Assembly: GCA_016201275.1 (NCBI GenBank)
Contig: JACQDB010000030.1
Coordinates: forward strand, 65,864 to 129,863
From: Acidobacteriota bacterium
Lineage (GTDB): Bacteria > Acidobacteriota > Blastocatellia > UBA7656
Direction: 5' to 3'
DNA length: 64,000 bases
In this document: positions 33,429-54,117 of the stretch, one piece after another
How the letters are laid out: each line of letters begins with the position of its first letter
Position numbering within the stretch: the stretch's first letter is position 1
Position numbers and translations under genes: made by a program
The notes under the pieces: model-generated
Databases searched by the model: none
What the model was told of the DNA's origin: nothing
Seen by the model: only the letters and a program-made list of their open reading frames with translations

Positions 33429-34422
33429 TGGTTACTATCTCTATTTGTAAAAGGTCTTGACGATACCCCCAGACGCCTATGCGCGGCAACGACTCCAGGT
33501 GAGCTTTATGCTCGCCAAATACGTTGCCTTCCAAGGTTGTGCAGGCGGTTTTAAAGCCGACTTCTTTGACGGCATCCACTTCGCGCCGACTCACGGTTGC
33601 CCGGTTGCCAAACGGGTAGGCGAAATGCTCAACCGGCTTTTGGATATGAGATTCGACTAGCTGTTTGGATTCGCCGATTTCTCGTTGCATGGTTTTGGCA
33701 GCTATTTGACTGAGGGCAAAATGATTTTTCGTATGAGCGCCTATGGTTACCTGTGGATCACCGCTTAGAGTCTTTATCTGTTCCCAACTCAGTGAAAGAG
33801 AGGTTGAATAGGTTGACAATTCCAGGCCGTTTGCCGCGAATAAATTTTGCAGCAACTCTTCCCTGCCTTGCTCATCTGCCGAAGTAATCAAATTGGCAAT
33901 GACGTGAAATGCCACTTCTTTTTGAAGCCTTGTGGATATGGGAAACTGATAGTCTATGCCGTCGTGAGAGAACCCAAGTGAGGATACTTTGACCAGCAGG
34001 TCTTCAAGGAGATACCACCAAATCACGGCTTTTTTTTCCGGGAAATTGGTCGTGATGAATACCGTAAACGGCGCTTCATACTTCTTGAAAATCGGATAGG
34101 CGATGGTGTAGGTATCCACATAGCCGTCATCAAACGTAAAGCAGGCAAACTTTTTCCGGGGCTGTTTCCCGGTGTGTAAATATTCGTACAGCAAATCAAG
34201 AGAGACGATTTCATGCCCTTTGGCAATAACCGATTCAAGCAGGGCTTCTAAAAATGCAGGGCTGATTTCGATAGCCGGATTCCCGACTCGCAGTTTGTCG
34301 GAGATGGCAACCACACGATGCAACATAAAGATCGTTCCTATGCCTGAAAAAAACGGCGAGAACATCCGATGAAGTTGCAGATATTCGGTGGCCAGTGTAA
34401 AAACTCGATTCTTTATTCCCAT
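33376..34422 (-). CDS. Polysaccharide deacetylase (NodB-homology domain)
   Basis: CFTFDDGYVDTY...APFTVFITTNF...IGAHTKNHFAL matches NodB motifs 1-3. Confidence 0.8.
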   Translation of the reverse strand: MGIKNRVFTLATEYLQLHRMFSPFFSGIGTIFMLHRVVAISDKLRVGNPAIEISPAFLEALLESVIAKGHEIVSLDLLYEYLHTGKQPRKKFACFTFDDGYVDTYTIAYPIFKKYEAPFTVFITTNFPEKKAVIWWYLLEDLLVKVSSLGFSHDGIDYQFPISTRLQKEVAFHVIANLITSADEQGREELLQNLFAANGLELSTYSTSLSLSWEQIKTLSGDPQVTIGAHTKNHFALSQIAAKTMQREIGESKQLVESHIQKPVEHFAYPFGNRATVSRREVDAVKEVGFKTACTTLEGNVFGEHKAHLESLPRIGVWGYRQDLLQIEIVTSGCLPALRERFAKVLTI

Positions 34423-34512
34423 GTCCGCTGTTCATCAATCTCTGAATTAGGATTTCGGTTTGTTATCCGAATCGTTGCCCAACCAGAGCGTCTAGCAGGA
34501 TCCGCCACCATA

Positions 34513-35514
34513 TTAATAGTCCCGTACAATCGGCTGAAGGTTATAGTTTGATGCGTTGAATGGATCAATGCCTTCCAGACTTGCGCGATTCGAGAACACG
34601 ATGAAAGGCGGTTTATAGGAAAACAGCGCTTTATTAAAGCTGTTTTTCAGAAATTGATTTTCTTCGTAAGCCTGCCTGAGCGGTTCATCCGTCGGCTCAA
34701 ACGTATAAATAAACGTGAAGCCATGTCGGTCAAACAGATAGCTGCAAACTTCGTTCATCACCTTTTTCAGCAACTCTTTATCCGATACCTGCACATAATG
34801 AATAAAGCACCGCCGTTTTTCTTCCTCTTTCCAAATCACCAGTCCGCAGAGCCGATTGGCTTGAGAAACTTTCACTATGCGATAGGCAATCAACGGGTGC
34901 GAAGCGATGCGCCAATTCAAAAATTCCCGGTTGATCTGTTGCTTGATAGTCGGTGAAGGTGTGGCTGCCGGTTCGGCAAATTCATTGCTGAACTCCTCAC
35001 CGAAAGATTCAATCTCTTCGAGAACGAAATCCCGCTTCCTTTGAAACAGATTTCGCAGCTTATGATAATGCTTCTCCAAAAAGATCAAATCAATTAACTT
35101 CACGGTTTGCCAATTCAACTTTTTGATAAACCCCGGATAAGAGGTTTCTCCGGGAAAGCCGATGACCAGTACCCATCCCTCTCTGGCGATCTGGTGTTGA
35201 TAGGTTCTTTCGGCAAGGCGGTTGAAAAGTCCCATTCTGCGATACTCCGGGTGGGTCATGGTATCCATAGACTGAAAGAACGTAACTGGTTGCTCATCAA
35301 TCAGATATTGTTCGGGAATCATTCCATAGAAGGCGGCGATTTTAGCGCCATCAACAGCCACATAGCAGACGGCTTTGCCCGCCGGATTATCCAGAAGTTT
35401 CCAGTGAAAATAATCGGCAGGTGGCTGCACGCCAAAACACAGAGAATAGAGTTCTGCCAGTTGTGGAAAGTCTGTTTGCCGAACCTCTCGATAATCAAAA
35501 TTGATTTGCTTCAT
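34513..35514 (-). CDS. GNAT-family N-acyltransferase (possibly FemAB-like, two-lobed)
   Basis: GNAT motif A region HPEYRRMGLFNRLAERT in the N-terminal lobe. 333 aa suggests a duplicated fold. Confidence 0.55.
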   Translation of the reverse strand: MKQINFDYREVRQTDFPQLAELYSLCFGVQPPADYFHWKLLDNPAGKAVCYVAVDGAKIAAFYGMIPEQYLIDEQPVTFFQSMDTMTHPEYRRMGLFNRLAERTYQHQIAREGWVLVIGFPGETSYPGFIKKLNWQTVKLIDLIFLEKHYHKLRNLFQRKRDFVLEEIESFGEEFSNEFAEPAATPSPTIKQQINREFLNWRIASHPLIAYRIVKVSQANRLCGLVIWKEEEKRRCFIHYVQVSDKELLKKVMNEVCSYLFDRHGFTFIYTFEPTDEPLRQAYEENQFLKNSFNKALFSYKPPFIVFSNRASLEGIDPFNASNYNLQPIVRDY

Positions 35515-35637
35515 AAGGATTCGTTTAACTCAATTCAACAGGTTAGTCAGTAACCTCACGATACGGTGCGAACGTCCACGGGTTGCATATATCGCCTGTC
35601 AAAGGCGACCGCACCACTGCTGTGAAAGAGGTCTCTG

Positions 35638-36223
35638 CTATCGTCTCTTGAGAAAGAGAGAGCCTGTCATAAGAAAGACTTCACGGTTCCTGAGCAGCGC
35701 CGAACCGACGATCTGGCGATACGGCGACAGCGTCCACGGGTCGCGCATATCTATGACGAACGGCACGCCGGTCAAACGCGAAAGCGCCGCTGCTGTAAAA
35801 TATGCCGAATAGGGTTCGCCGGTCGCATAAATCAAATCGAACATCGGGAATCAACAACGTCTTATCGAACGTCATCCAGGCTTTTCCGGCAACGGCGCGC
35901 AGTGCTTGTTTGCGTGATCGTTTGGCTATCGTCCTGTCGCCGTTATCGCTGCCCTGATGATTCACCGATGATGCAGCGGCAGGCAGTCGCGTGAATCGCG
36001 CAACCGGATCGAAATGCGCCGTGCGAATAATTTTTATGCTGTCAGGAAAATCATCGGTGTGGGAAGCGTCTTGCACTCCGTAGCAAGATTCGGTAACCGT
36101 CAACACTGTCGGCAGCCAACCAAACTCCGGCAGATACTTGACGAATTTCGCCGTGCGCTGCACCCCCGCCCCACCAGCCGGAGGAAAGGTGTAAGCGATG
36201 ACTAAAACACGAAGCTGATTCAC
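35638..36223 (-). pseudogene. Frameshifted, C-terminally truncated duplicate of the GT4 gene at 32112-33428
   Basis: 35702-35841 is 100% identical to 32866-33005 (140 bp). The upstream part encodes MNQLRVLVIAYTFPPAGGAGVQRTAKFVKYLPEFGWLPTVLTV, about 80% identical to the parent N-terminus. A frame break occurs near 35845-35870, and no GT-B C-terminal half follows. Confidence 0.75.
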
Positions 36224-36291
36224 TGGTTATTCAATACTTGAGTTTGCCTAAAATAGCTCTCTATCATCAACAAAGTCTTCCGCTCAATATT

Positions 36292-37569
36292 TCAATGAGT
36301 GAAATCCTTGTGGATATTATCCAGGTTGCTAAGACACTCCAAAATGTTCGTGAAGCCATATCTCTCGCTGCTTATGCTGACAGGAAACTGCATTTCCTTT
36401 GGGGCAAGTTTATTCTTATCTATCGAGCCATAGCGCACCGCTGACTCAATTGTACTCAATATAGTAGAGTTGTCTATCGCATTTCTTATTCTGGCTCGCA
36501 AACTACCAATCATTCCTTGACGTTGTGGAGGGGCAGCGGGGTATCTCCACTTTTCAATGGCTTGTGCAGCCTTATTTTTCACCTCTTCGGGCTGTCTCTC
36601 CAAGGCTTCAAATAACTCCTTTTCATCCGCACTGGTATCAATGCCTCTTGTACGAAGAGATACTATTTGACCATAAGTGGCAAGAAAGTAACTCTCCCAA
36701 TTCAGTTCAATATCTGACAGCACACTAGGCATTTTCTCCTTCACTAGCAAGAGAGTATCGCCCACATAATTAGTGACGATCACGGACTTCAAAGGTACCC
36801 TTGAAAAAAGGTCTTCGCCCTTGAACTCTGCTTTAAATTCATGAGTAGCTTCATTCCTGTTATACAGCGTTGAAGACCCGATACTCTCTCTGGCAGAACC
36901 TGCTATATATAAAGGCTCATCTATGAACAGATATCCTGCTGTCAAAGCCAGCGCCTCCACACAAAACGAATAATCGGGGCAGGATGGCAGGAAGACGCGA
37001 CCAACTTGTTTTTTTATATCTTCCAAGATTTTTCTCGATGCAAAAGAATTCAACATCTTGGGATGACGAACATGATAGGTAAAAGAAAATATATCACGTA
37101 AATCTGCTTTGCTCTCAAAGTATTGAGTGCCTCCCTGAAAATAATTGCGTATCAGCAGGGTATTTCTTTCATCCACATTATTCCAAGTCGGATGAAAATA
37201 CCATCCCGCATTCCAGGTGATGATCTCAACCTTGTTCTCATGTAATAAACCACTCACTTTAGCTAGAAGATTGGGGCTAATCGCATCATCATCACACAAG
37301 TAAGTGATATATTCCCCTTTGGCATAATTCAAAGCAAAATCCCAATGATCTGGCATGGATAAGGTTTTATCGGTACGGATGTAGCGAACCCGATCACCAC
37401 CGACTTCTCGGACAACGTCTTCTGTATCATCCGTGCAGTTGTTATTACTGACTAGGATTTCATAATCATCAAAGGTTTGATTCAGGGCGCTTTGCAAAGC
37501 ATAACGCAATAAATACGCCCGGTTGCGGGTGGGAATGACGATTGAAAATAATGGCATAATTTCTCTCAA
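36292..37569 (-). CDS. Glycosyltransferase family 2
   Basis: FSIVIPTRNRAYLL...TFDDYEILVSNNNCTDDT...YLCDDDA (GT-A, DxD). Confidence 0.8.
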   Translation of the reverse strand: MREIMPLFSIVIPTRNRAYLLRYALQSALNQTFDDYEILVSNNNCTDDTEDVVREVGGDRVRYIRTDKTLSMPDHWDFALNYAKGEYITYLCDDDAISPNLLAKVSGLLHENKVEIITWNAGWYFHPTWNNVDERNTLLIRNYFQGGTQYFESKADLRDIFSFTYHVRHPKMLNSFASRKILEDIKKQVGRVFLPSCPDYSFCVEALALTAGYLFIDEPLYIAGSARESIGSSTLYNRNEATHEFKAEFKGEDLFSRVPLKSVIVTNYVGDTLLLVKEKMPSVLSDIELNWESYFLATYGQIVSLRTRGIDTSADEKELFEALERQPEEVKNKAAQAIEKWRYPAAPPQRQGMIGSLRARIRNAIDNSTILSTIESAVRYGSIDKNKLAPKEMQFPVSISSERYGFTNILECLSNLDNIHKDFTH

Positions 37570-37599
37570 AGATAATTTGATTTTGACGGCTCAAAAATC

Positions 37600-38724
37600 T
37601 CACGACCCCAATATCTCTTGTAGAGATTCACAAACATATTCAACTTTTTCTCTGGAAAGATTGAGGCCACTGGGCAGATTTAATCCAGATGGGGCTATCT
37701 CGTAAGCGTTGCAGTTCCTAGCTCTGGCTAACGCGGCTTGCGGCATCTCAGCGTAAGCAGGAATCGAACTCAAGGGATAAAACAAGGGGCGGCAATCTAT
37801 ACCTTTTTCAGATAACCGATTCATCGCCTCTTCTTTCGCCAATTGCCATCGCTTATCGAAAAGAACGCTCACCATCCAGTAGGTGTTTTTTACCCCAAGG
37901 GCTTCACGGTTGAGGGTGATTCCTTCGACATCCATAAGCCCTTGTTGATACCAGTGAAAAATCTCGCGCTTGCGTTCGACGAGTTCTTCGACTCTCTCTA
38001 ACTGGGCAAGTCCCAATGCCGCCTGCATACTCGACATCTTATATTTATGCGCCACCTCGGTATTCCAAAACAATTTATCGCCGGGTTTGCGTCCATGGTC
38101 TTGCAGAAAGCGACAGCGTTGATAAAGCTCTTCATCATCCGTGAGCAGCATTCCGCCTTCCCCAGTCGTCAAGGTCTTTGACCCGTGAAAGCTGAAGGTG
38201 CTTAGGGAGCCAAAGCTCCCCGCTTTTTTCCCTTGATATTCGCTGCCGATGGATTCCGCCGCATCTTCAATCACCTGTATGCCGTGGCTCTGGGCAATCT
38301 CCAGTATGGCGTCCATATCAGGCATATTGCCGTAGAGATTGACCACGATGACCGCTTTGGTTCGGGGAGTGATATTTTCCAGAAATGAGTTGGCATCCAG
38401 ACACCACGAGTCTTTATCAACGTCTGCAAAAACGGGTTGCGCGCCAACGTATGAAATCGGCGCGGAACTGGCAATCCAGGTAATCTCAGGAACGATCACC
38501 TCGTCTCCTGCTTTGACCCCCAGACTCAGTAGCGCCAAGTGGAGCGCCGAGGTACAGGAAGGCAACGCCATCGCATACCTTCGTCCAACATACTCGGCAA
38601 ATGCTGTCTCGAACTTTGCGTGGTACATATTGGCATTGCCATACCAGGCATTGGTGACCGCATCGGTGACATAATCAATCTCTTTTTGGGTGATCCAAGG
38701 ACCCGAAACCGATATGCGTTCCAT
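37600..38724 (-). CDS. DegT/DnrJ/EryC1/StrS-family PLP-dependent NDP-sugar aminotransferase
   Basis: ISVSGPWITQKEIDYV..., and SFHGSKTLTTGEGG with the PLP Lys in the SKT context. About 374 aa from the internal ATG, which is too short for an E1 3-dehydrase. Confidence 0.88.
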   Translation of the reverse strand: MERISVSGPWITQKEIDYVTDAVTNAWYGNANMYHAKFETAFAEYVGRRYAMALPSCTSALHLALLSLGVKAGDEVIVPEITWIASSAPISYVGAQPVFADVDKDSWCLDANSFLENITPRTKAVIVVNLYGNMPDMDAILEIAQSHGIQVIEDAAESIGSEYQGKKAGSFGSLSTFSFHGSKTLTTGEGGMLLTDDEELYQRCRFLQDHGRKPGDKLFWNTEVAHKYKMSSMQAALGLAQLERVEELVERKREIFHWYQQGLMDVEGITLNREALGVKNTYWMVSVLFDKRWQLAKEEAMNRLSEKGIDCRPLFYPLSSIPAYAEMPQAALARARNCNAYEIAPSGLNLPSGLNLSREKVEYVCESLQEILGS

Positions 38725-38729
38725 CTTTC

Positions 38730-39482
38730 CTAATCCTTCACACATTTCAAATAGCCGTCAGGAGCTACGGTAATGAGCAATTTATTTTCTATCTCTTTAT
38801 CTATTTCAAAGCGGTCATTTTTTTTCAGAAATTCATGCACGGCTGTTTTGGGATTGTTGCCTTTACCCCAGGGGCGATCCTGAAAAAAATCTTCCGGCAA
38901 ATCTTCAATCACCGTATCAAACACCACAAGATAGCTGCCCTTGGATACCAGTGGCGCATAGAGTTGTAACTCGCGCAAGACGTGGTCATGGGAATGATTG
39001 GAATCCAAAATCACAAGAACTCTTTCCTTGCCTTTAGCAAAGTTATGAACCTTTTCCACCACCAACGAATCAACCGATGAGCCTTCAAGGATTTTTATTC
39101 TTTTATACATCGGGTGCTTTTCAAGCTCAATTCTATTGTGGCTTCTCACCTCAATATCTATTCCTAAAATTTCTCTCGTGCCACCAATCAATTCCAGCAT
39201 GGAGGCATAAAAAATCAAAGACCCTCCATGCGCGATGCCAGTTTCGATGATGAGATCAGGTTGAACCCGCCAAATAATTTCTTGCATGGCAAGAATATCT
39301 TGCGGGAACTGAATAATCGGTCTTCCCATCCAAGTAAAATTATAGGAATACTTGTATTTGGAAACTTCTGTTATCCAGGTGTTAGAAGTTTTTGCGATGA
39401 GAGAATTCTCTCCTAATCTTCTGATGTTTTCGGCTTTTTCTTCTTCAAAGGAAGTCATAAAGAGTCTCTTGCTAAAAATCAA
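38730..39482 (-). CDS. CmcI / cephalosporin-hydroxylase-family protein (class I methyltransferase fold; sugar O-methyltransferase-like)
   Basis: 250 aa. RPIIQFPQDILAMQEIIWRVQPDLIIETGIAHGGS matches the CmcI family core. Confidence 0.6.
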   Translation of the reverse strand: MIFSKRLFMTSFEEEKAENIRRLGENSLIAKTSNTWITEVSKYKYSYNFTWMGRPIIQFPQDILAMQEIIWRVQPDLIIETGIAHGGSLIFYASMLELIGGTREILGIDIEVRSHNRIELEKHPMYKRIKILEGSSVDSLVVEKVHNFAKGKERVLVILDSNHSHDHVLRELQLYAPLVSKGSYLVVFDTVIEDLPEDFFQDRPWGKGNNPKTAVHEFLKKNDRFEIDKEIENKLLITVAPDGYLKCVKD

Positions 39483-40287
39483 ATTGGTTATGCCGTTGCA
39501 TAATTGTCATTCTAATGGGGCTAAATTTTCCGACCCAAGGGAGTTTGACGGCTACTTGATGGATTTCATGGTTATAGTCAGGAGTTTCTCCGCGCATTTC
39601 GCACATCGCCGAATAAATCACCCTTGTGGCAAAGTAATAAGAACTCGAAAAATCAAGAAAGCTGATGCGCTCAAAAAACTCTTCCGCCAAGCCTACAAAC
39701 TCTGTCTCTTTGAAATACAGATTATGCCATCTGATAGGAATCTCTTTTAGCCCTACAGACTGACGGGCAGCGGTCAAATTTTCTTGCCCTTCAACAAAAT
39801 TTTCTACTGCCAGATAGTAGCCGCCGGGCTTCGTATGTTTGGCGATTTGTGCGATGGCGCGCGACTGCGCTGCCACAGAATCTAAATTGATTAGACAACG
39901 GTCTGAAATAACCACGTCGAAAAGCTCTGCGTCACAAGTCTGGTCAATATCCATCGCGTTGCCCACTTTGAATAAGACTCTGTCCTTTAGTTCAGCAGTA
40001 TTTTCTATATTTGCCTGCGCCAAACTTATCATTTGCTCACTATAATCGAGTCCCAGAAACTGAACTTCAGGAAATTTTTGAGCAATCTGAATCGTTGAAT
40101 AACCATCACCACACCCTACGTCAAGAACGCTCTTGAGCTCCGGCAAATCCAGTTGACTCATCCTGTCAATGAACGTGGCGATTTCAATTTTTCTTAGATA
40201 AATATCATCTGTAGTGGCTGAAGTCCTGCCTACATTTTGTGCCGCTCTCTCATCCCAATATTGCTTGATGTTTAAATCCTTATCCAC
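39472..40287 (-). CDS. Class I SAM-dependent methyltransferase
   Basis: VLDVGCGDGYSTIQIA ... FDVVISDRCLINL ... PGGYYLAVE. Confidence 0.75.
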   Translation of the reverse strand: MDKDLNIKQYWDERAAQNVGRTSATTDDIYLRKIEIATFIDRMSQLDLPELKSVLDVGCGDGYSTIQIAQKFPEVQFLGLDYSEQMISLAQANIENTAELKDRVLFKVGNAMDIDQTCDAELFDVVISDRCLINLDSVAAQSRAIAQIAKHTKPGGYYLAVENFVEGQENLTAARQSVGLKEIPIRWHNLYFKETEFVGLAEEFFERISFLDFSSSYYFATRVIYSAMCEMRGETPDYNHEIHQVAVKLPWVGKFSPIRMTIMQRHNQFDF

Positions 40288-40290
40288 GTC

Positions 40291-40842
40291 TCACTCCTTG
40301 AAATCCTGATAGGAAAGATCTTTTTCAGAGATCGAACGAATCTCCAAAGGTAAGCGAATACCAAAAGTCGCATCATCCCATCTTACGCCTCTGGCGCTTT
40401 CGGGATAATAAAACTCAGACATCTGGTAAAAGACTTCCGTGTTGTCGGCAAGCGTTTGAAATCCATGCGCGAAGCCTTCCGGTATGTAAAGCATCCGGCG
40501 ATTCTCTGCCGTAAGCTCTACTGCCAGCCATTGCTTGAAGGTTGCGGAACTCTCGCGCAGATCAATCATCACATCGTAGATTGCGCCCATCGTACAACGC
40601 ACCAACTTCACCTCTTGGTGCGGCGCAACTTGATAGTGCATACCGCGCAACGTACCTCTTTTTTTATTGAAAGAGATACTGCATTGCACCAGTTTGGCAT
40701 TCAAGCCATGCGCTTCAAATTCGCCTTCACACCAAGTCCGCGCAAAAAAACCTCTCTCATCTACCAACCTCTCCGGCTCTATCAGGTATGCGCCTTTTAG
40801 TTTCAATTCCGTGAATACCATAAGCCAGTGTGCTATCTTCAC
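40291..40842 (-). CDS. NDP-4-keto-6-deoxyhexose 3,5-epimerase (RmlC-like cupin)
   Basis: 183 aa. ERGFFARTW..., RGMHYQ..., and EVKLVRCTMGAIYDVMIDLR...YIPEGFAHGFQTL match the RmlC catalytic His/Lys/Tyr layout. Confidence 0.85.
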   Translation of the reverse strand: MKIAHWLMVFTELKLKGAYLIEPERLVDERGFFARTWCEGEFEAHGLNAKLVQCSISFNKKRGTLRGMHYQVAPHQEVKLVRCTMGAIYDVMIDLRESSATFKQWLAVELTAENRRMLYIPEGFAHGFQTLADNTEVFYQMSEFYYPESARGVRWDDATFGIRLPLEIRSISEKDLSYQDFKE

Positions 40843-42083
40843 ACCACTTTCAACTCTGGAATCGGGATGATGAAGCGTCCGCCCTGTTGGCGAAACTCCG
40901 ATTGTTGAGCAAGAATTTCATCAGCAAAATTCCACGTCAAAAGCAGAACGTAATCCGGAATTGCCGCAAGCAATTTTTCCGGTGCGTAAATTGGCAGATG
41001 GGTTCCAGGCGTATAATAGCCCTGTTTTTTTGTGCTGCGGTCAACCACGAAATCAATCGTTTCGCACCCGATACCAAAGTAATTCAACAGCGTGCTGCCT
41101 TTTGCGGAAGCTCCGTAAGCCGCTACTCTCTTGCCATTTGATTTCAGTTCCTTTAATAAGGCGAGCATACTTGCTTTCAATTCTTCAACCTTCGCGCCAA
41201 AGCCTTTATAAAAGCGCAATTCTTTTAAGCCTAACTCCGCTTCCTTTCGCAAAGTATCCCTCACAGCTTGAGAGCCTGTGCCGGTTCGTTGATTGTCATT
41301 CTTACAAACAAATACTCTCAGTGAGCCGCCGTGAACCGACAGATGCTCGACATCGGCAATGAACAGGTCATGGCGTTGGAACAAAGTGTTGAGCGCCGTC
41401 AACGAGAAGTAACACAGATGTTCGTGATAGATGGTGTCAAACTCTACGCCGTTTAGCATATCCAGAACATACGGCACTTCGATTGAAGCTATGCCCTCGT
41501 CTTTGAGAATGAGATGCAATCCCGCGACAAAGCCGTTGAGGTCGGCGACGTGCGCTAAAACATTGTTGGCATGAACGACATCAGCAAACTTCCCATCCCG
41601 ACTAAGTTGCAAGCCAAGCTCTTTGCCAAAGAATTCACTGATGCTCGTGATGCCGCGCTCTTCTTGAGCGACGCGAGCGATGTTAGCCGCAGGCTCTATG
41701 CCCAGCACCGCAATGCCTCTCTGTTGATAATGCTGTAATAAATAGCCATCATTGCTGGCAATCTCTATGACCAAGCTGTTGCCATTCAAGCGCCGCGATT
41801 CGATCAGCCGTCGCGCTATGGCTTCTGAATGTTGCAGCATGGTGTCGGAAAATGAGGAGAAGTAGAAATACTCTCTGAACAACTTTTCGGGTGGCACGGT
41901 CTCGGTGATTTGCACTAAGGAACAGAGCGCACAAAAGCCTAAATCCAGTGGATAAGTTGGCTCAACTTTCGCAAGTTGCTCCTGATTCAATAAAGCATTT
42001 GCCAGCGGCGTCTCTCCTAACGAGAGAATGAGTTCGAGATGGGCTTCGCCACAAGAGCGACACACCGCAGAAGTAATTTTCAT
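40839..42083 (-). CDS. NDP-hexose C-methyltransferase (TylCIII/NovU-like; Zn-ribbon + SAM MTase + C-methyltransferase C-domain)
   Basis: N-terminal CRSCGEAHLELILSLGETPLANAL...GFCALCSLVQ (Cys4 ribbon), then a class I MTase core (LVIEIASNDGY). Start set at internal ATG 42081-42083. Confidence 0.7.
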   Translation of the reverse strand: MKITSAVCRSCGEAHLELILSLGETPLANALLNQEQLAKVEPTYPLDLGFCALCSLVQITETVPPEKLFREYFYFSSFSDTMLQHSEAIARRLIESRRLNGNSLVIEIASNDGYLLQHYQQRGIAVLGIEPAANIARVAQEERGITSISEFFGKELGLQLSRDGKFADVVHANNVLAHVADLNGFVAGLHLILKDEGIASIEVPYVLDMLNGVEFDTIYHEHLCYFSLTALNTLFQRHDLFIADVEHLSVHGGSLRVFVCKNDNQRTGTGSQAVRDTLRKEAELGLKELRFYKGFGAKVEELKASMLALLKELKSNGKRVAAYGASAKGSTLLNYFGIGCETIDFVVDRSTKKQGYYTPGTHLPIYAPEKLLAAIPDYVLLLTWNFADEILAQQSEFRQQGGRFIIPIPELKVV

Positions 42084-43108
42084 CAGCCTACATCCAGGAA
42101 TTTTTTGTACCACTTAATGGTCTGCTGCAAACCTTGATCGAGGGTAAACAGCGGTTGCCAGCCCAAGTCACGACGCGCCTTTTCAGCACTCAAATACTGA
42201 TGACGAATCTCATGGCTCGCTTCGTTGCGGATGTCCGGCGCGAAATCACAAGCCATCTGCGCTAAAATTTGATTTACCAAATCCAGCACCGTCACCTCAA
42301 TTTCATTGGAAAAATTGAAGGCTTGCCCGCGCCAATCAGGATTTTCAGCAAGCTTTTCTGCCAACAAAGTATAAGCCGCTGCGCCATCTTCGACATAAAA
42401 ATAATCGCGCACATAATTGCCATCCGAACGAATGATTGGTCGTTGTCCGCGCAACACCGAGCGTATGGTTCCCGGGATGATGCGGTTCCAATTCAAATCG
42501 CCGCCGCCATAAAAATTGCCGCAGCGCGTAATCGCCACTGGCAAACCGTAGGTCTTTGTATAGGTCTGGGCTATCAAATCCGCACAAGACTTGCTGACAT
42601 CGTATGGATGGCTGCCTTGCAGCGGCGTCTCTTCATTGTATGGCAAGCTCTCGTGTTCCCCATATGCTTTATCTGATGAAGCAAGCACAATCTGTTTTAC
42701 CGCAGGGCTTCTTCGGCAGGCTTCAAGCAATGCCCAAGTACCGGCGATGTTGGTTTCAAAGGTCGAGATCGGATTGCGGTTGGCTATGCCAACAATGGTC
42801 TGCGCCGCTAAATGAATAACCGTGTCTATTTCGTATTCGCCAAGCGCGCGCTCTAGCAAGCTCTGGTCGCGCACATCGCCGCGTACAACTTTGACTTGCT
42901 CAATAAGCCGACTGCTAGTGAGTTCGCTTTGCGGAACCCAATCGCGAATCAAGCAAACGACATCAGCGCCCAACGCCAACAACCGCCGCGCTAAAGAACT
43001 GCCCACCAATCCCGTAGCGCCGGTGATCAAGGTCGGGCGGTCTTGCCAGAAGCGTTTTTTATTTTCGGTTATTCCCAGATTTTCCAAGGCGGGTTCCCAC
43101 TTTTCCAC
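42083..43108 (-). CDS. rfbG: CDP-glucose 4,6-dehydratase
   Basis: [25 protein letters not shown]..., and [10 protein letters not shown] (YxxxK). Overlaps rfbF by ~40 bp, so the true start may be a downstream non-ATG codon. Confidence 0.85.
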
Positions 43109-43839
43109 AAACTTTCAAGCAAGCGCAAATCCCTAAGCGTGTCCATGCATTGCCAGAAACCATCATGCCGATAGGCCGCCAACTGACCATCACTTGCGAG
43201 TTTTTCCAAGGCATCCGCTTCCAGGCTGCTGCTATCATCTTGCAAATATTCAAACACTCCAGGTTCACAAACCATAAAGCCGCCGTTGATCCAGCCTTCG
43301 CCAGCTTGCGGTTTTTCGGTGAACTTGGAAACCAGGTCGCCATCAAAAATGAGTCCACCAAATCGAGCCGGTGGACGCACAGCCGTTATGGTTACCAGAC
43401 GACCGTGGGAGCGGTGAAAAGTTAAGAGTTGACGAAGATTTATATCAGCGACTCCATCGCCATATGTAACCATGAAAGTGTCATCTTTTAAGTAGGATTC
43501 CAGACGCTTGATGCGACCTCCGGTCAGCGTCTCTTTGCCGGTCTCCATCAAATGAATCATCCAGTCTTCGCATTCTCTACTGCGTGTTTGAAAATCGCCG
43601 GTAGAAAAATTCATGGTAACGCTGCCGCTGAAGCTGTAATAATCCGAGAAGAATCGTTTAATAAATTCGCCTTTGTATCCTAGAGCAATAAAAAATTCTT
43701 TGAAGTCATAATGCCAATAGTGCTTCATGATATGCCATAGAATCGGATACTCGCCGATTTCCACCATAGGCTTGGGCTTCACTTCAGTCTCTTCGGCAAG
43801 GCGGCTTCCAAGTCCGCCTGCAAGGATCGCTACTTTCAC
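43069..43839 (-). CDS. rfbF: Glucose-1-phosphate cytidylyltransferase
   Basis: [41 protein letters not shown] is nearly invariant among RfbF orthologs. Confidence 0.9.
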
Positions 43840-43860
43840 AAAGATGTCCTCGCTCGCTGT

Positions 43861-45141
43861 CTAGTTTTCTTTGACGTGGTACTCGGTGTGCCATTGCAAC
43901 ATCGGTCGCACGACGCCTGGCATATGTCCCGCATAATCGCCGCGTGAGGAATTGCCGTCAAGGCTGTCCACCACCTGAAAAGCCACCGCATCTTGCTCAT
44001 GAAAATGTATGGTCACCGGGTCCATGGTGCTGATGGCTGCGCCAACAATCATCGTGCCTTCAGAGAGAAAATTACCGGGAACCCAAACCGTGCTTTTATA
44101 TCGTCCGAGGGGACGCGGTGTGGTTCGCCAATGCTCATCGAGTTCTTGAGCGACAAAGGCGCAGACTCCTTCTTCAGTATAAAAATGGTAATTGGGTACC
44201 AAAATGTGATACGGATTCAGCACAGCGTATTCCATCTCCAAGCCAATTGGTTTTCTGATGTCAACGACATCCGTTAGCTGTCCATCCTCATCAACCACGC
44301 GGATAGCGTACAGGCGAACGATGTCATTACCCGGAGCCTTTTCTAAATCTTGCCACTCTCTTACAGCCGTTGTGCCAAGCCCTGAATTCAAATATGAACT
44401 GGCCACTTTGTGGGCGGTGCCATCAGCCAGCACTTGCCCATCGCCGAGCAAAATGGCGCGTTTGCACAGCCGCGTGATCGCCGACATATTATGTGAAACA
44501 AACAGCACGGTCCTGCCGTGTTCGCCGACATCGCGCATTTTTTCCAGGCATTTCTTTTGAAACCCAGCGTCACCGACGGCCAGCACTTCGTCAACAATCA
44601 ATATCTCCGGCTCCAGATGCGCCGCGACCGCAAACGCCAGACGCATATACATACCGCTGGAATAGTGCTTCACCGGCGTGTCTATGAATTTTTCGATCTC
44701 GGCAAAGGCCACTATCTCATCGAACTTGCGCTCAATCTCGGCGCGCTTCATGCCCAGAATCGCGCCGTTCAAATAAATATTCTCGCGTCCGCTCAACTCC
44801 GGGTGAAACCCCGTACCAACTTCCAGTAAACTGCCGACCCTGCCATATAGTTTAATGTTTCCGGTGGTCGGTTCAACGATGCGCGCCAGAATTTTCAACA
44901 AGGTTGATTTGCCTGCGCCGTTGCGTCCGATGATGCCCACGACTTCGCCGGGTTTTACTTCAAAGCCAACATCTTTCAAAGCCCATATGGTTTCAACCCC
45001 ATTTCCTTTTTTGCTCTGACTCTTGCTGAAAGGCGCACGGATACTTCTAACGATTGAATCGCGCAACGTCCCATAAGACGCATCGCGTGTGCCTAGGCGA
45101 TATTGCTTGCTGACATTTTCGACGGTGATGATGGATTGCAT
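43861..45141 (-). CDS. wzt: Polysaccharide ABC-transporter ATP-binding protein with C-terminal carbohydrate-binding domain
   Basis: Walker A GRNGAGKST, signature YSSGMYMRLAF, Walker B ILIVDE. A ~190-aa C-terminal extension follows, typical of Wzt proteins that recognise a modified chain terminus. Confidence 0.85.
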   Translation of the reverse strand: MQSIITVENVSKQYRLGTRDASYGTLRDSIVRSIRAPFSKSQSKKGNGVETIWALKDVGFEVKPGEVVGIIGRNGAGKSTLLKILARIVEPTTGNIKLYGRVGSLLEVGTGFHPELSGRENIYLNGAILGMKRAEIERKFDEIVAFAEIEKFIDTPVKHYSSGMYMRLAFAVAAHLEPEILIVDEVLAVGDAGFQKKCLEKMRDVGEHGRTVLFVSHNMSAITRLCKRAILLGDGQVLADGTAHKVASSYLNSGLGTTAVREWQDLEKAPGNDIVRLYAIRVVDEDGQLTDVVDIRKPIGLEMEYAVLNPYHILVPNYHFYTEEGVCAFVAQELDEHWRTTPRPLGRYKSTVWVPGNFLSEGTMIVGAAISTMDPVTIHFHEQDAVAFQVVDSLDGNSSRGDYAGHMPGVVRPMLQWHTEYHVKEN

Positions 45142-45142
45142 A

Positions 45143-46021
45143 TCAAACGAAATCGGCGAAGCTTTTTTCCATGCGCCGAAACACATAGGCGGAAGAGACG
45201 AGCAGGAGCACGGCTATGCCCACAGAGATATTGAAAGACAGCCAATCGAAGGGTCGGTTAAACAGAGCGGCGCGGCTGTTTTCCACTATGCCGGTCAAGG
45301 GATTCAGTTTCATCAACCATTGCCATTTTTCCGGTATCAAACTCGACGGATAATAAACCGGCGTGGCAAACATTCCGACCTGCACCAGAAACGGAATCAT
45401 CGCCGCTACGTCGCGGTATTTCACATTCAAAGCCGACAGCCACATCCCCACGCCCAATGCCAAAATGGTCATCAGCACAATCAGTACAGGAAACATCAGC
45501 AGGTGGACGCTTGCGCCGACGCCGTAATAGATCATCAAACCGATCAGCACGACCACAGAGACGGCATAATCCACCAACCCCGAAAGCACGGTGGCGCTCG
45601 GAATAATCAGGCGCGGAAAATAGACTTTGGTAATCAGGTTGGCACTGCCGACCAGACTGCTGCCGCTTTGCGTGATGGCTTTCGAGAAAAACATCCAGGG
45701 CAGCAACCCGGCAAAGACGAACAGCGCATAAGGCAGATTGTCCGAAGGCACGCGCACGATTTTGCCGAAGAAAATCGTGGTAATCACCATCGTCATCAAG
45801 GGCTGCAAGACCACCCAGACGACGCCCAATAGAGTTTGTTTGTAGCGCACTTTGACATCGCGCCAAGTCAGAAAATAGAGCAATTCACGATAGGCCCAGA
45901 TTTCCTTCAAGTTCAAAGCCAACCAGGTGCGACTGGCTTTGATCTCGACGACCGGCTCCGGCGGCAACACCTGTGGCACATCCGGCGACTTGCCGGGTTC
46001 AAGCTCTGCGAGGGTTTCCAT
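45143..46021 (-). CDS. wzm: Polysaccharide ABC-transporter permease (ABC-2 type)
   Basis: 292 aa, six TM helices, ABC-2 N-terminal signature RDVKVRYKQTLLGVVWVVLQP. Confidence 0.85.
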   Translation of the reverse strand: METLAELEPGKSPDVPQVLPPEPVVEIKASRTWLALNLKEIWAYRELLYFLTWRDVKVRYKQTLLGVVWVVLQPLMTMVITTIFFGKIVRVPSDNLPYALFVFAGLLPWMFFSKAITQSGSSLVGSANLITKVYFPRLIIPSATVLSGLVDYAVSVVVLIGLMIYYGVGASVHLLMFPVLIVLMTILALGVGMWLSALNVKYRDVAAMIPFLVQVGMFATPVYYPSSLIPEKWQWLMKLNPLTGIVENSRAALFNRPFDWLSFNISVGIAVLLLVSSAYVFRRMEKSFADFV

Positions 46022-54111: not shown

Positions 54112-54117
54112 AAAAAC

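What the first reader, a model, noticed from the sequence alone, without database searches (positions are those of the whole stretch)
37600..43839. CDP-hexose pathway with C-methyltransferase, 3,5-epimerase and aminotransferase: likely branched/amino 6-deoxyhexose
rfbF and rfbG (CDP-4-keto-6-deoxyglucose), an RmlC-like epimerase, a TylCIII/NovU-like C-methyltransferase, a DegT aminotransferase of aminotransferase size (not an E1 dehydrase) and a CmcI-like MTase are contiguous. C-methyl branched CDP sugars are rare outside Yersinia-type yersiniose, and an amino, C-methyl CDP-sugar would be unusual. Alternatively DegT may act on the GDP-4-keto-6-deoxymannose from the orphan gmd at 1764-2753 (perosamine-like).
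Basis: partly seen in the sequence, partly recalled or inferred. Interest (0 to 1): 0.55.

Follow-up and report, generated by a model that had tools for sequence, protein, structure and literature searches.

The report
Operon for a CDP-linked C-methyl amino sugar
Seven tightly packed genes in an Acidobacteria polysaccharide locus most likely build an undescribed cytidine-activated, carbon-branched, methylated 4-amino-6-deoxy sugar, and the same gene cassette recurs across many bacterial phyla and some archaea without ever having been studied.

Summary
Wzm/Wzt lie upstream and a GT2 downstream.

The DegT keeps the PLP lysine. Its closest solved relative is GDP-perosamine synthase (41% identity), far above the E1 dehydrase.

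Of 45 DegT orthologues (57% identity or more) with enough flank, 43 sit beside the C-methyltransferase and the epimerase, 40 beside CmcI and 35 beside RfbF, but only 6 beside a GMD. In many of these loci the slot between the epimerase and CmcI-DegT holds a sugar N-acetyl- or N-formyltransferase or an ATP-grasp ligase. That is what an amino-sugar pathway would need.

A cyanobacterial cassette is otherwise the same but carries a reductase instead of DegT.

Best reading: CDP-glucose, then the 4-keto-6-deoxy sugar, C-methylation (probably C3), 5-epimerisation, C4 transamination, and two further methylations. The perosamine alternative is unlikely and the E1 reading is refuted.

Still open: the stereochemistry, C3 versus C5 methylation, and the atom the 271-aa methyltransferase targets. 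I rate it a new variant of a known kind, of moderate interest.

The parts
45143..46021 (-). Wzm, ABC-2 permease of a polysaccharide exporter (context; co-inherited with the cassette in part of the related loci)
   Evidence: PF01061, 83.8 bits. Homologues at 36-61% identity lie directly upstream of the cassette in 11 related loci, among them L005, L012, L014, L015, L019, L032, L036, L042 and L084.
43861..45186 (-). Wzt, ABC ATPase with a C-terminal extension of about 170 aa resembling the Wzt_C carbohydrate-binding domain
   Evidence: PF00005. The C-terminal 179 aa hit PF14524 Wzt_C at E 1.5e-5 and 25.4 bits, below the 30.4 cut-off, covering profile positions 5-131 of 143. The C-terminal part is 53-63% identical in Chloroflexi, Nitrospirae and Acidobacteria loci that carry the cassette.
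43069..43839 (-). RfbF, glucose-1-phosphate cytidylyltransferase (makes CDP-D-glucose)
   Evidence: TIGR02623 equivalog, 344 bits against a cut-off of 300, over the full length 1-255. It starts 21 nt after the Wzt stop, with a GAGGA upstream.
42083..43108 (-). NDP-glucose 4,6-dehydratase, a divergent type. Inferred to be a CDP-glucose 4,6-dehydratase.
   Evidence: Best NCBIfam model is TIGR02622 at 221 bits (cut-off 278); the dTDP type scores 197. PDB: 6bi4 (dTDP) 1e-45 and 1rkx (CDP) 3e-45. In related cassettes the same slot is held either by this type or by a canonical RfbG (L033: TIGR02622, 501 bits).
40839..42083 (-). SAM-dependent NDP-hexose C-methyltransferase (TylC3/MtmC/KijD1/TcaB9 family). 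Probably methylates C3.
   Evidence: PF08421 Zn-binding domain + class I MT + PF08484. PDB: MtmC 4rv9 5e-93, KijD1 2e-82, TcaB9 3e-76. CxxC...CxxC and the equivalents of TcaB9 Tyr76, His181, Tyr222, Glu224 and His225 are conserved. Identical to NCBI MBI3650476.1.
40291..40821 (-). RmlC-type NDP-4-keto-6-deoxyhexose epimerase (3,5- or, after C3 methylation, 5-epimerase)
   Evidence: TIGR01221, 177 bits against a cut-off of 156; PF00908, 220 bits. PDB RmlC proteins at 1e-36 to 2e-45; NovW 1.5e-23; PCZA361.16 (entries 1ofn/1oi6, which I take to be EvaD) 8e-23.
39472..40287 (-). MT271, a class I SAM methyltransferase specific to the aminotransferase form of the cassette. The acceptor atom is unresolved (N-methyl on the C4 amine, or a second O-methyl).
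   Evidence: PF13847/PF13649. It belongs to a discrete unnamed family of 704 proteins at E<=1e-10. In 3 of 3 long contigs and 7 genome loci it lies between RmlC and CmcI-DegT. In 58 metagenome loci with room downstream, 48 have a DegT orthologue within 1.6 kb. The model has pLDDT 94, but the fold search does not discriminate.
38730..39458 (-). CmcI / rhamnosyl-O-methyltransferase family methyltransferase. Inferred to be a sugar O-methyltransferase.
   Evidence: PF04989, 324 bits; NF045824 rhamnosyl O-MT, 113 bits (cut-off 400). It is present both in the aminotransferase cassettes and in the reductase-type Crinalium cassette, which has no amine. It lies directly upstream of DegT in 37 of 59 orthologue loci.
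37600..38724 (-). DegT-family PLP aminotransferase, Per-like. Inferred to be an NDP-4-keto-6-deoxyhexose C4-aminotransferase.
   Evidence: PF01041, 382 bits. PDB: C. crescentus GDP-perosamine synthase 4e-88, full length, 41% identity, with the PLP Lys conserved (SFHGSK against SFFGNK). E1 (3bb8) scores only 1.7e-36 over residues 6-212. NCBIfam RfbH 184 bits against a cut-off of 423.
36292..37569 (-). GT2 glycosyltransferase. Probably the dedicated transferase for the cassette's sugar.
   Evidence: PF00535. A GT2 of about 410-430 aa at 26-40% identity follows DegT directly in L014, L019, L032, L042, L084, L058, L086, L087 and others, and follows CmcI in Crinalium.

Best explanation
The seven genes form one pathway that turns glucose-1-phosphate into a cytidine-diphosphate-activated, C-methyl-branched, methylated 4-amino-4,6-dideoxyhexose. 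The adjacent GT2 then adds this sugar to a glycan exported by the adjacent Wzm/Wzt ABC transporter.

Proposed order:
1. RfbF makes CDP-D-glucose.
2. The dehydratase makes CDP-4-keto-6-deoxy-D-glucose.
3. The TylC3/TcaB9-type enzyme methylates the carbon next to the keto group, most likely C3.
4. The RmlC-type enzyme epimerises the remaining acidic position (C5), which would give an L-series sugar.
5. The Per-like DegT converts the C4 keto group to an amine, so no ketoreductase is needed.
6. The CmcI-family enzyme O-methylates a hydroxyl, by analogy the 2-OH.
7. The 271-aa methyltransferase adds a further methyl, either on the C4 amine or on a second hydroxyl.

Shown here: the enzyme family assignments, the conserved catalytic residues, and the conserved synteny across phyla.

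Inferred: CDP as the carrier throughout, C3 regiochemistry, the order of steps, the stereochemistry, the O-methyl position, the acceptor of MT271, and whether the methylations precede or follow glycosyl transfer.
For: Family assignments and thresholds.

C-methyltransferase: Zn site and five TcaB9 catalytic-site equivalents are conserved.

DegT: PLP Lys is conserved. Its best solved relatives are C4 aminotransferases (Per 299 bits; then PglE/ArnB-type at about 165-175; E1 129, partial).

Synteny: 80 loci were found with DegT in one genome per species. Of the 45 with DegT at 57% identity or more and at least 9 kb upstream, the C-methyltransferase is present in 43, RmlC in 43, CmcI in 40, a dehydratase in 39, RfbF in 35, and a GMD in only 6.

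The slot between RmlC and CmcI-DegT carries amine-tailoring enzymes in other loci:
- NeuD/PglB/VioB-type N-acetyltransferase (8 loci; TIGR03570, 179 bits against 161)
- sugar N-formyltransferase with PF18216 (7 loci)
- ATP-grasp ligases (8 loci)
- GNAT (3 loci)

Crinalium epipsammum has the same cassette with an SDR reductase in place of DegT and MT271. This shows that reductase and aminotransferase are alternative ways to consume the 4-keto group.

CDP as carrier: RfbF passes its equivalog cut-off. In Paenibacillus aestuarii the dehydratase slot of the same cassette holds a canonical CDP-glucose 4,6-dehydratase (501 bits).

The exact seven-gene order of the window recurs on independent contigs. 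No ketoreductase lies in or next to the window cassette.
Against: - There is no biochemistry: everything rests on homology and synteny.
- The window's dehydratase is below the CDP-specific cut-off (221 against 278) and scores almost as well against dTDP enzymes.
- DegT's closest characterised relatives (Per, LegC) act on GDP-sugars, and the window holds two GMD-type genes.
- All solved relatives of the C-methyltransferase act on dTDP-2,6-dideoxy substrates. A C5-methylating relative (NovU) exists and could not be compared.
- The fold search for MT271 could not tell an N- from an O- or C-methyltransferase.
- Six metagenome loci carry both MT271 and an N-acetyltransferase, which weakens the idea that MT271 is the N-tailoring alternative.
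- Six genome loci also carry an SDR in the slot.
Confidence: 0.7

Rival explanations
1. Two pathways are interleaved. DegT is a GDP-perosamine synthase acting on GDP-4-keto-6-deoxymannose from the GMD genes of the same locus. The CDP cassette makes a neutral C-methyl 6-deoxyhexose, reduced by an SDR encoded elsewhere.
For: The best solved relative of DegT is GDP-perosamine synthase (4e-88, 41% identity), and LegC, another GDP-sugar enzyme, is the best NCBIfam model. A true GMD (547 bits) and a GMD-like gene are in the window. More distant DegT relatives (46-54% identity) do sit with GMD, for example L072 and L080.
Against: Only 6 of 45 close orthologue loci have a GMD within 10 kb, while 43 of 45 have the C-methyltransferase and RmlC. 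DegT is the last gene of a tightly packed operon, 27 kb from the nearest GMD, and that GMD has its own Fcl-like partner. No ketoreductase for the CDP branch lies in or beside the cassette. The reductase-type cassette (Crinalium) lacks DegT, and the DegT-type compact cassettes lack a reductase. Even the GMD-linked distant relatives keep a C-methyltransferase and an RmlC-like gene, so they look like a GDP-based version of the same branched amino sugar rather than plain perosamine.
Confidence: 0.1
2. The pathway is the same, but the C-methyltransferase acts at C5 (noviose-like 5,5-gem-dimethyl sugar) after 3-epimerisation by the RmlC-type enzyme. The product would then be a 4-amino-5-C-methyl sugar rather than a 3-C-methyl sugar.
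For: From my own knowledge: NovU of the novobiocin pathway belongs to the same methyltransferase family and works with the RmlC-like 3-epimerase NovW. NovW is a detectable relative of the window's epimerase (1.5e-23).
Against: All solved relatives are C3 enzymes, and their active-site residues are conserved here. The epimerase is much closer to bona fide RmlC (2e-45) than to NovW.
Confidence: 0.1
3. DegT is an E1-type (RfbH) PMP-dependent 3-dehydrase, and the cassette makes a 3,6-dideoxy sugar.
For: RfbF and a 4,6-dehydratase start the classical CDP-3,6-dideoxyhexose pathway. E1 is a DegT-family protein (one search lists 3bb8).
Against: - The PLP lysine is present (SFHGSK), where, from my own knowledge, E1 and ColD have histidine.
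- The protein is 374 aa and aligns end to end with Per. E1 matches only residues 6-212 at 129 bits, and RfbH scores 184 against a cut-off of 423.
- No E3 reductase gene is present in the locus.
Confidence: 0.01
4. A rival for one step only. MT271 is a second O-methyltransferase, possibly acting on the sugar after transfer to the glycan. The C4 amine is then left free or is acylated by a non-cassette enzyme such as the GNAT at 34513-35514.
For: The best characterised structural matches include the sugar 4'-O-methyltransferases AtmM and RebM. Six MT271 loci also carry an N-acetyltransferase. A GNAT lies three genes downstream in the window.
Against: MT271 was found only in aminotransferase-type cassettes: 48 of 58 loci have a close DegT within 1.6 kb, and most of the rest have a DegT-family hit nearby. 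In the 41 genome loci it occupies the slot that otherwise holds N-acyltransferases and never co-occurs with them there. The GNAT is not conserved with the cassette. The best sequence matches in the PDB are N-methyltransferases (phosphoethanolamine N-MT 2.7e-11, ToxA, MitM).
Confidence: 0.4

Closest known systems
CDP-3,6-dideoxyhexose pathway of Salmonella/Yersinia (RfbF, RfbG, E1/RfbH, E3/RfbI, then reductases/epimerases)
   Same: Same entry steps. The glucose-1-phosphate cytidylyltransferase passes the equivalog threshold, followed by a 4,6-dehydratase and then a DegT-fold enzyme.
   Different: There is no E1 chemistry (Lys, not His; no E3 gene). Instead there is a SAM C-methyltransferase, an RmlC epimerase and a true aminotransferase. 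The dehydratase is a divergent type, below the CDP equivalog cut-off.
dTDP-sugar 3-C-methyl pathways of actinomycete natural products (TylC3/EryBIII mycarose, MtmC, KijD1, TcaB9)
   Same: Same C-methyltransferase family and architecture. About 40% identity to MtmC, with catalytic residues and Zn site conserved. The logic is the same: 4-keto intermediate, then C-methylation, then 5-epimerisation.
   Different: The carrier nucleotide is inferred to be CDP, not dTDP. The substrate keeps the 2-OH, since there is no 2,3-dehydratase gene. The 4-keto group is aminated rather than reduced. The context is a cell-surface polysaccharide locus with an ABC exporter, not a secondary-metabolite cluster.
GDP-perosamine synthase Per (Caulobacter crescentus, PDB 3BN1/3DR4)
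   Same: Closest solved relative of DegT: full-length alignment, 41% identity, same PLP lysine. It performs C4 transamination of an NDP-4-keto-6-deoxyhexose.
   Different: Close orthologues of the window's DegT are linked to RfbF, the C-methyltransferase and RmlC, not to GMD (43 of 45 against 6 of 45). The substrate is therefore inferred to be a CDP-linked, C-methylated, epimerised sugar.
Virenose (6-deoxy-3-C-methyl-gulose) of Coxiella burnetii LPS; the pathway is predicted in silico (PMC3539893)
   Same: A TylC3-type C-methyltransferase acts on an NDP-4-keto-6-deoxyhexose for a lipopolysaccharide sugar.
   Different: Virenose is proposed to be GDP- or dTDP-linked, and it is reduced at C4, so it is neutral. 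It carries no amino group and no O- or N-methylation.
N-acylkansosamine of Mycobacterium kansasii lipooligosaccharide (4,6-dideoxy-2-O-methyl-3-C-methyl-4-acylamido-L-manno-hexose) and sibirosamine of sibiromycin (4,6-dideoxy-3-C-methyl-4-methylamino sugar). Recalled from my own knowledge, not checked with tools.
   Same: These are the sugars whose substitution pattern best matches the predicted product: 6-deoxy, 3-C-methyl, 4-amino (N-acyl or N-methyl), 2-O-methyl. They need the same enzyme set: dehydratase, C-methyltransferase, epimerase, 4-aminotransferase, and O- and/or N-methyltransferase.
   Different: As far as I recall, those pathways are thought to be dTDP-based and occur in actinobacteria.
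CDP-vinelose of Azotobacter vinelandii (CDP-6-deoxy-3-C-methyl-2-O-methyl-L-talose). Recalled from my own knowledge; no paper was found in the library.
   Same: It is the one CDP-linked, SAM-type C-methyl, O-methyl 6-deoxyhexose I know of. It fits the reductase-type cassette seen in Crinalium (RfbF, dehydratase, C-methyltransferase, RmlC, SDR, CmcI), which is the sister of the window's cassette.
   Different: Vinelose is neutral (4-OH). The window replaces the reductase with an aminotransferase and adds MT271. The link between vinelose and this cassette is untested.

Membership tests
CDP-hexose pathways (RfbF/RfbG-initiated) | Glucose-1-phosphate cytidylyltransferase | tested here: met
   TIGR02623 equivalog, 344.1 bits against a cut-off of 300.25, full length.
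CDP-hexose pathways (RfbF/RfbG-initiated) | CDP-glucose 4,6-dehydratase | tested here: inconclusive
   TIGR02622 scores 221 bits, below the cut-off of 278, and the dTDP model scores 197. PDB dTDP and CDP enzymes score equally. Positional equivalence with a canonical RfbG (501 bits) in L033 supports the same role.
CDP-3,6-dideoxyhexose (E1/E3) pathway | An E1 (RfbH) PMP dehydrase with His in place of the PLP Lys and a [2Fe-2S] site, plus an E3 reductase | tested here: not met
   Lys is present in SFHGSK and aligned to Per's PLP lysine, the residue replaced by Ala in the variant chain 3dr4 (Lys186 by my own recollection of the numbering). RfbH NF011936 scores 184 against a cut-off of 423. E1 aligns only to residues 6-212. 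No E3-like gene is in the window.
TylC3/TcaB9 NDP-hexose C-methyltransferases | N-terminal Cys4 Zn domain + class I SAM domain + PF08484 C-terminal domain | tested here: met
   PF08421 76 bits, PF13489 56 bits, PF08484 206 bits. CxxC...CxxC is present.
TylC3/TcaB9 NDP-hexose C-methyltransferases | Active-site Tyr76, His181, Tyr222, Glu224, His225 (TcaB9 numbering, from my own knowledge of the TcaB9 mutagenesis work) | tested here: met
   All five positions are conserved in the phmmer alignment to 3ndi (EYFY, LAHV, IYHEH).
TylC3/TcaB9 NDP-hexose C-methyltransferases | Methylation at C3 of an NDP-4-keto sugar | not testable with these tools
   All solved relatives are C3 enzymes. The C5 enzyme NovU could not be compared. 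Needs NMR of the product.
RmlC 3,5-epimerases | Equivalog-level match and cupin fold | tested here: met
   TIGR01221, 177.4 bits against a cut-off of 155.75; PF00908, 219.6 bits. RmlC structures at 2e-45. Whether it epimerises C3+C5 or C5 only is not testable here.
GDP-perosamine synthase (Per) | Acts on GDP-4-keto-6-deoxymannose and is genetically linked to GMD | tested here: not met
   GMD is near only 6 of 45 close orthologues, while RfbF is near 35 and the C-methyltransferase near 43. Substrate specificity itself is not testable here.
DegT/DnrJ/EryC1 sugar aminotransferases | PLP-binding lysine and full-length fold | tested here: met
   PF01041, 382 bits, profile positions 3-360 of 360. 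Lys is conserved.
CmcI / rhamnosyl O-methyltransferase family | PF04989 domain | tested here: met
   324.5 bits, profile positions 2-204 of 206. The rhamnosyl O-MT equivalog NF045824 scores only 112.6 against a cut-off of 400, so the protein is a family member and not an orthologue of the mycobacterial enzyme.
Sugar N-methyltransferases (TylM1/DesVI/CalS10 type), considered for MT271 | Specific similarity to known NDP-aminosugar N-methyltransferases | tested here: inconclusive
   CalS10 scores only 1.9e-4, and TylM1 and DesVI are not among the hits. Foldseek gives generic class I MT matches with TM 0.5-0.6. Context links MT271 to the aminotransferase but is not exclusive of N-acetyltransferases.
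Wzt transporters with a terminal-residue-binding Wzt_C domain | C-terminal PF14524 domain | tested here: inconclusive
   E 1.5e-5 and 25.4 bits, below the 30.4 cut-off, but covering profile positions 5-131 of 143. No structure was predicted.

The most novel reading that the evidence does not exclude
The cassette defines an unrecognised class of CDP-activated amino sugars: 4-amino-4,6-dideoxy-3-C-methyl-O-methyl-L-hexoses with interchangeable N-formyl, N-acetyl, N-aminoacyl or N-methyl decoration. It would have spread by horizontal transfer through more than 15 phyla, including methanogenic archaea. In the Wzm/Wzt-linked versions, such as the window's, the sugar would be the non-reducing-end cap that terminates chain growth and is read by the co-inherited Wzt_C domain as the export signal.
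Probability: 0.2. Interest if true: 0.7.

Novelty: new variant of a known kind. Interest (0 to 1): 0.5.

Why it matters
To my knowledge, known CDP-sugars are limited to the 3,6-dideoxyhexoses, yersiniose and vinelose. I know of no CDP-linked amino sugar, and the searches I ran in the paper library found none.

If the prediction holds, this cassette adds a new branch to nucleotide-sugar biochemistry. That branch would be common in soil and sediment bacteria (Acidobacteria, Chloroflexi, Nitrospirae, Planctomycetes, cyanobacteria) and in some methanogens, whose surface glycans are almost unstudied.

It also offers a ready set of enzymes for glyco-engineering: a CDP-specific C-methyltransferase, a 4-aminotransferase and N-tailoring enzymes.

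Because it is linked to a Wzt with a carbohydrate-binding-type tail, it is also a testable candidate for a new chain-terminating export signal.

Cultured carriers exist (Paenibacillus aestuarii, Leptolinea tardivitalis, Crinalium epipsammum), so the idea can be tested directly.

Tried and rejected
- The exact-protein look-up with the longest ORF of the C-methyltransferase failed. It succeeded with the ATG at 42083, which fixed the start.
- The E1/dideoxy reading is rejected: Lys is present, E1 matches only partially, and there is no E3.
- A C3-aminotransferase reading is rejected. There is no 3,4-ketoisomerase or 2,3-dehydratase, the cupin passes the RmlC equivalog, and C3-aminotransferases (QdtB, DesV, WbpE) score about 150 bits against 299 for Per.
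- The idea that MT271 and N-acyltransferases are strictly alternative occupants of one slot held in the 41 genome loci. It failed in 6 metagenome loci that carry both, so I lowered the claim that MT271 is an N-methyltransferase.
- Structure prediction of MT271 gave a confident model (pLDDT 94), but Foldseek against the PDB returned only generic class I methyltransferases of mixed O-, N- and C-specificity.
- The promoter and terminator scan gave counts equal to shuffled sequence and does not delimit the operon.
- Literature searches for vinelose, WbqC, kansosamine, 3-C-methyl/CDP-glucose, N-formyltransferase+CDP+C-methyltransferase, cytidylyltransferase+C-methyltransferase and PDB code 7B0M found no description of this cassette. 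Only the Coxiella virenose papers were relevant.
- GNAT333, the polysaccharide deacetylase and the 180-aa ORF downstream are not conserved with the cassette and were left out of it.

Full report
**Source and setting.** The window comes from an Acidobacteria (Acidobacteriota) metagenome-assembled genome. The C-methyltransferase and the 271-aa methyltransferase are identical to NCBI proteins MBI3650476.1 and MBI3650474.1, on a 136,575-bp contig. Almost every gene between about 1.7 kb and 51 kb is on the minus strand and belongs to a very large polysaccharide locus. That locus contains:
- an O-antigen-ligase/Wzy_C protein, Wza, Wzc, Wzm and Wzt
- many GT2 and GT4 glycosyltransferases and several methyltransferases
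- acyltransferases (Acyl_transf_3, MBOAT), a polysaccharide deacetylase and GT-C/PMT_2 proteins
- two GMD-type genes with an Fcl-like partner

**Observation check.** The interval 37600-43839 holds seven contiguous minus-strand genes, not six. In order of transcription they are:
- RfbF (43839-43069): TIGR02623, 344 bits against a cut-off of 300.
- A 4,6-dehydratase (43108-42083): best model is CDP-glucose 4,6-dehydratase at 221 bits (cut-off 278); the dTDP type scores 197.
- A C-methyltransferase with PF08421 + PF08484 (42083-40839).
- An RmlC-type epimerase (40821-40291): TIGR01221, 177 bits against 156.
- A CmcI-family methyltransferase (39458-38730): PF04989, 324 bits.
- A DegT aminotransferase (38724-37600): PF01041, 382 bits.

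The starts were fixed from independent gene calls on two identical metagenome contigs and from where orthologues begin to align. Neighbouring genes overlap by one base or are a few to about 30 nt apart. RfbF starts 21 nt after the Wzt stop, and a GT2 (37569-36292) follows DegT. The G+C content of 36-42 kb (0.44-0.47) is below that of the flanks (0.53-0.55), as is usual for mobile sugar cassettes.

**Enzyme-level evidence.**
- **C-methyltransferase.** It matches MtmC (D-mycarose 3-C-methyltransferase, 5e-93, about 40% identity), KijD1 and TcaB9 over its full length. It keeps both CxxC pairs of the zinc site. It also keeps the equivalents of TcaB9 Tyr76, His181, Tyr222, Glu224 and His225 (the roles of these residues are from my own knowledge of the TcaB9 mutagenesis work). 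It is therefore a C-methyltransferase, not an O-methyltransferase.
- **DegT.** It aligns end to end with Caulobacter crescentus GDP-perosamine synthase (4e-88, 41% identity), and the PLP lysine is conserved: SFHGSK against SFFGNK. The next solved relatives fall to about 165-175 bits (PglE/ArnB types). The E1 dehydrase reaches 129 bits over the N-terminal half only, and NCBIfam RfbH scores 184 against a cut-off of 423. No E3-like gene exists in the window.
- **Epimerase.** It is much closer to genuine RmlC proteins (2e-45) than to the mono-epimerases NovW and PCZA361.16, which I take to be EvaD (about 1e-23).
- **CmcI-family protein.** It has only a remote solved relative, CmcI, at 7e-8.
- **MT271.** It has no informative solved relative by sequence.

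**Comparative genomics of DegT, the decisive evidence.** A scan of one genome per species with DegT returned 80 loci. I searched these with all the window proteins by tblastn. Sixty-four loci carry a DegT at 57% identity or more, in these groups:
- Acidobacteria (Pyrinomonadaceae, Blastocatellia, Chloracidobacterium)
- Chloroflexi
- cyanobacteria and Melainabacteria
- Nitrospirae, Gemmatimonadetes, Chthonomonadaceae, Planctomycetes and Verrucomicrobia
- Firmicutes (Paenibacillus aestuarii, Selenomonadaceae)
- several proteobacterial classes
- Methanomicrobiales archaea

Of the 45 loci with at least 9 kb of upstream sequence, 43 have the C-methyltransferase, 43 RmlC, 40 CmcI, 39 a dehydratase and 35 RfbF. 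Only 6 have a GMD at 45% identity or more. CmcI lies directly upstream of DegT in 37 of 59 loci. DegT is therefore an integral part of the RfbF/C-methyltransferase cassette and not a stray perosamine synthase.

**The variable slot.** Forty-one loci have RmlC, CmcI and DegT in order. The stretch between RmlC and CmcI varies in them from about 0.2 to 4.3 kb. Its 86 ORFs include:
- NeuD/PglB/VioB-type sugar N-acetyltransferases: 8 loci, the only gene in the slot in L012, L013, L037, L041 and L042; TIGR03570 scores 179 against a cut-off of 161.
- Sugar N-formyltransferases carrying the PF18216 dimerisation domain: 7 loci, the only gene in the slot in L019, L025 and L032.
- ATP-grasp ligases: 8 loci.
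- GNATs: 3 loci.
- WbqC-like proteins: 12 loci.
- PhyH dioxygenases: 6 loci.
- Further methyltransferases.
- SDRs: 8 loci.
- MT271 itself: 7 loci plus the window, always the only gene in the slot.

Enzymes that acylate sugar amines, placed inside the operon, are what one expects if the pathway's product carries an amine.

**The reductase-type sister cassette.** In Crinalium epipsammum PCC 9333 the order is RfbF, dehydratase (78% identical to the window's), C-methyltransferase (66%), RmlC (69%), a 305-aa SDR, CmcI (46%) and GT2. There is no DegT and no MT271. Reduction and transamination thus appear as two alternative fates of the same 4-keto intermediate. CmcI, which is present in both forms, most likely methylates oxygen rather than the amine.

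**Which nucleotide.** RfbF passes its equivalog cut-off. The dehydratase slot of the cassette is filled either by the window's divergent type (54-79% identity) or by a protein only about 30% identical to it. In Paenibacillus aestuarii that second type is a canonical CDP-glucose 4,6-dehydratase (TIGR02622, 501 bits). This positional replacement supports CDP-glucose as the substrate of the window's enzyme, but it remains an inference. More distant DegT relatives (46-54% identity, L068-L083) sit with remote C-methyltransferase (33-36%) and RmlC-like (35-46%) genes, and in L072 and L080 with a GMD (62-64%). This suggests a GDP-based sister pathway.

**MT271.** It belongs to a discrete, unnamed family of 704 proteins at E<=1e-10, typically 50-64% identical. 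Three members on long contigs lie in exactly the window's order: RfbF, dehydratase, C-methyltransferase, RmlC, MT271, CmcI, DegT, GT2. Two of them have Wzm/Wzt upstream. A metagenome scan with the family alignment gave 80 more loci:
- Of 58 loci with room downstream, 48 have a DegT orthologue within 1.6 kb and 39 have CmcI adjacent.
- Of 52 loci with room upstream, 43 have RmlC adjacent and 48 have the C-methyltransferase.
- None has a Crinalium-type reductase.

MT271 is thus tied to the amino form of the pathway, which suggests N-methylation. Three results keep this open:
- Six of these loci also carry an N-acetyltransferase between MT271 and CmcI.
- A confident model (pLDDT 94) matched only generic class I methyltransferases of O-, N- and C-specificity (AtmM/RebM, MitM, FPP methyltransferases; TM 0.5-0.6).
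- The best sequence hits in the PDB are N-methyltransferases, but with weak scores.

I put N-methylation at about 45% and a second O-methylation at about 40%.

**Proposed mechanism.**
1. Glc-1-P + CTP gives CDP-glucose (RfbF).
2. CDP-glucose gives CDP-4-keto-6-deoxy-D-glucose (dehydratase).
3. SAM-dependent methylation of the enolisable carbon next to the keto group, most likely C3 as in every solved relative.
4. Epimerisation at C5, the only remaining acidic position if C3 is quaternary.
5. PLP-dependent transamination at C4 by the Per-like DegT. This removes the keto group, so no reductase is required, and none is present.
6. O-methylation by the CmcI-family enzyme. From my own knowledge, the only sugar-related characterised member of this family is the mycobacterial rhamnosyl 2-O-methyltransferase.
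7. A further methylation by MT271.
8. Transfer by the conserved GT2.

Shown here are the family memberships, catalytic residues and conserved synteny. The nucleotide after step 1, the regio- and stereochemistry, the order of steps, and whether the methylations occur before or after glycosyl transfer are all inferred.

**Biological role.** Wzm/Wzt homologues directly precede RfbF in 15 of 51 orthologue loci, and two of the three MT271 loci on long contigs also have Wzm/Wzt upstream. The Wzt has a C-terminal extension of about 170 aa that matches the Wzt_C carbohydrate-binding domain just below threshold: E 1.5e-5, 25.4 against 30.4 bits, nearly full-length coverage. This extension is 53-63% identical across Chloroflexi, Nitrospirae and Acidobacteria cassettes. 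From my own knowledge of E. coli O8/O9a and Klebsiella O12, such domains bind the terminal cap of an O-polysaccharide. A heavily methylated rare sugar with its own GT2 next to such a transporter is a plausible cap. This is speculation, at about 0.2.

**Comparison with what is known.** The entry steps are those of the CDP-3,6-dideoxyhexose pathway, but the E1/E3 chemistry is absent. The branch-forming logic is that of the dTDP-mycarose and tetronitrose pathways. The amination step resembles perosamine synthesis. The predicted substitution pattern (6-deoxy, 3-C-methyl, 4-amino, O-methyl, with or without N-methyl or N-acyl) is that of N-acylkansosamine of Mycobacterium kansasii and sibirosamine of sibiromycin (my own knowledge). 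The reductase-type sister cassette would fit CDP-vinelose of Azotobacter vinelandii (my own knowledge). The only LPS C-methyl pathway found in the library is the in-silico virenose pathway of Coxiella, which is GDP- or dTDP-based and neutral (PMC3539893). Seven literature searches found no description of this cassette or of a CDP-linked amino sugar. The library lacks many subscription-journal papers, so prior work cannot be excluded.

**Verdict.** The perosamine alternative is unlikely (about 0.1) and the E1 alternative is refuted. The cassette is not rare: it is a widespread, modular and apparently uncharacterised family. The window carries the compact MT271 variant. I rate it a new variant of a known kind, with interest 0.5.

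Noticed in passing
window 35681-36223 and 32112-33428 (minus strand): The 180-aa ORF with no Pfam hit is a truncated paralogue of the N-terminus of the 438-aa GT4, 61% identical over 116 aa. The two copies bracket the GNAT (34513-35514) and the polysaccharide deacetylase (33376-34422). This looks like a partial duplication or recombination scar around an inserted two-gene block.
   Followed up: partly
window 8477-10521 and 1764-2753: There are two GMD-type genes. One is a clear GMD (TIGR01472, 547 bits) followed by an Fcl-like SDR (304 bits, cut-off 500). The second is a GMD-like gene just below threshold (398 against 415). The locus therefore also makes at least one GDP-6-deoxyhexose.
   Followed up: partly
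L072 and L080 (also L068-L083 generally): DegT relatives at 46-54% identity sit with distant C-methyltransferase (33-36%) and RmlC-like (35-46%) genes. In L072 and L080 they also sit with GMD (62-64%) instead of RfbF. This may be a GDP-based sister pathway to a C-methyl 4-amino sugar.
   Followed up: no
L006, L028, L031, L033, L063, L084 (slot between RmlC and CmcI): A recurring module lies inside the cassette: a PhyH-type dioxygenase, a methyltransferase of about 390 aa in most of these loci, a formyltransferase or GNAT in most, and a WbqC-like protein. The role of a dioxygenase and of WbqC in an amino-sugar pathway is unexplained.
   Followed up: no
L021, L029, L036, L040 (also L035, L062): Another slot variant carries an SDR of 341-442 aa. 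In the one copy scanned (L021) it has an N-terminal dual-specificity-phosphatase-like segment (PF00782, 28 bits, below cut-off). In L021, L029, L036 and L040 it lies next to an ATP-grasp ligase, and in L021, L029 and L036 a further methyltransferase follows.
   Followed up: no
window 29990-31174 (minus strand): A 394-aa protein with a squalene-hopene-cyclase C-terminal-type (prenyltransferase/terpenoid cyclase repeat) domain lies in the middle of the glycosyltransferase genes. This is unusual for a polysaccharide locus.
   Followed up: no
window 14000-28000 and 34000-44000: Two blocks have lower G+C (0.44-0.50) inside a locus that otherwise sits at 0.53-0.55. This suggests a mosaic, horizontally assembled polysaccharide locus. 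The sugar cassette lies in the second block.
   Followed up: no
window 62162-63813 (minus strand): An EcoRV-family restriction endonuclease (PF09233, 328 bits) lies next to a D12-class N6-adenine DNA methyltransferase. This looks like a complete type II restriction-modification pair.
   Followed up: no
window 60191-62131 (minus strand): A 646-aa fusion of an nSTAND2 NTPase with a Ser/Thr protein kinase domain lies next to the restriction-modification genes. It may be a conflict or defence-type signalling protein.
   Followed up: no
window 53362-55122 (minus strand): An SLT lytic transglycosylase lies next to a weak CagX/VirB9-like hit (28 bits, below cut-off), between the polysaccharide locus and a glycogen phosphorylase. 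This may be a remnant of a type IV secretion or conjugation element.
   Followed up: no
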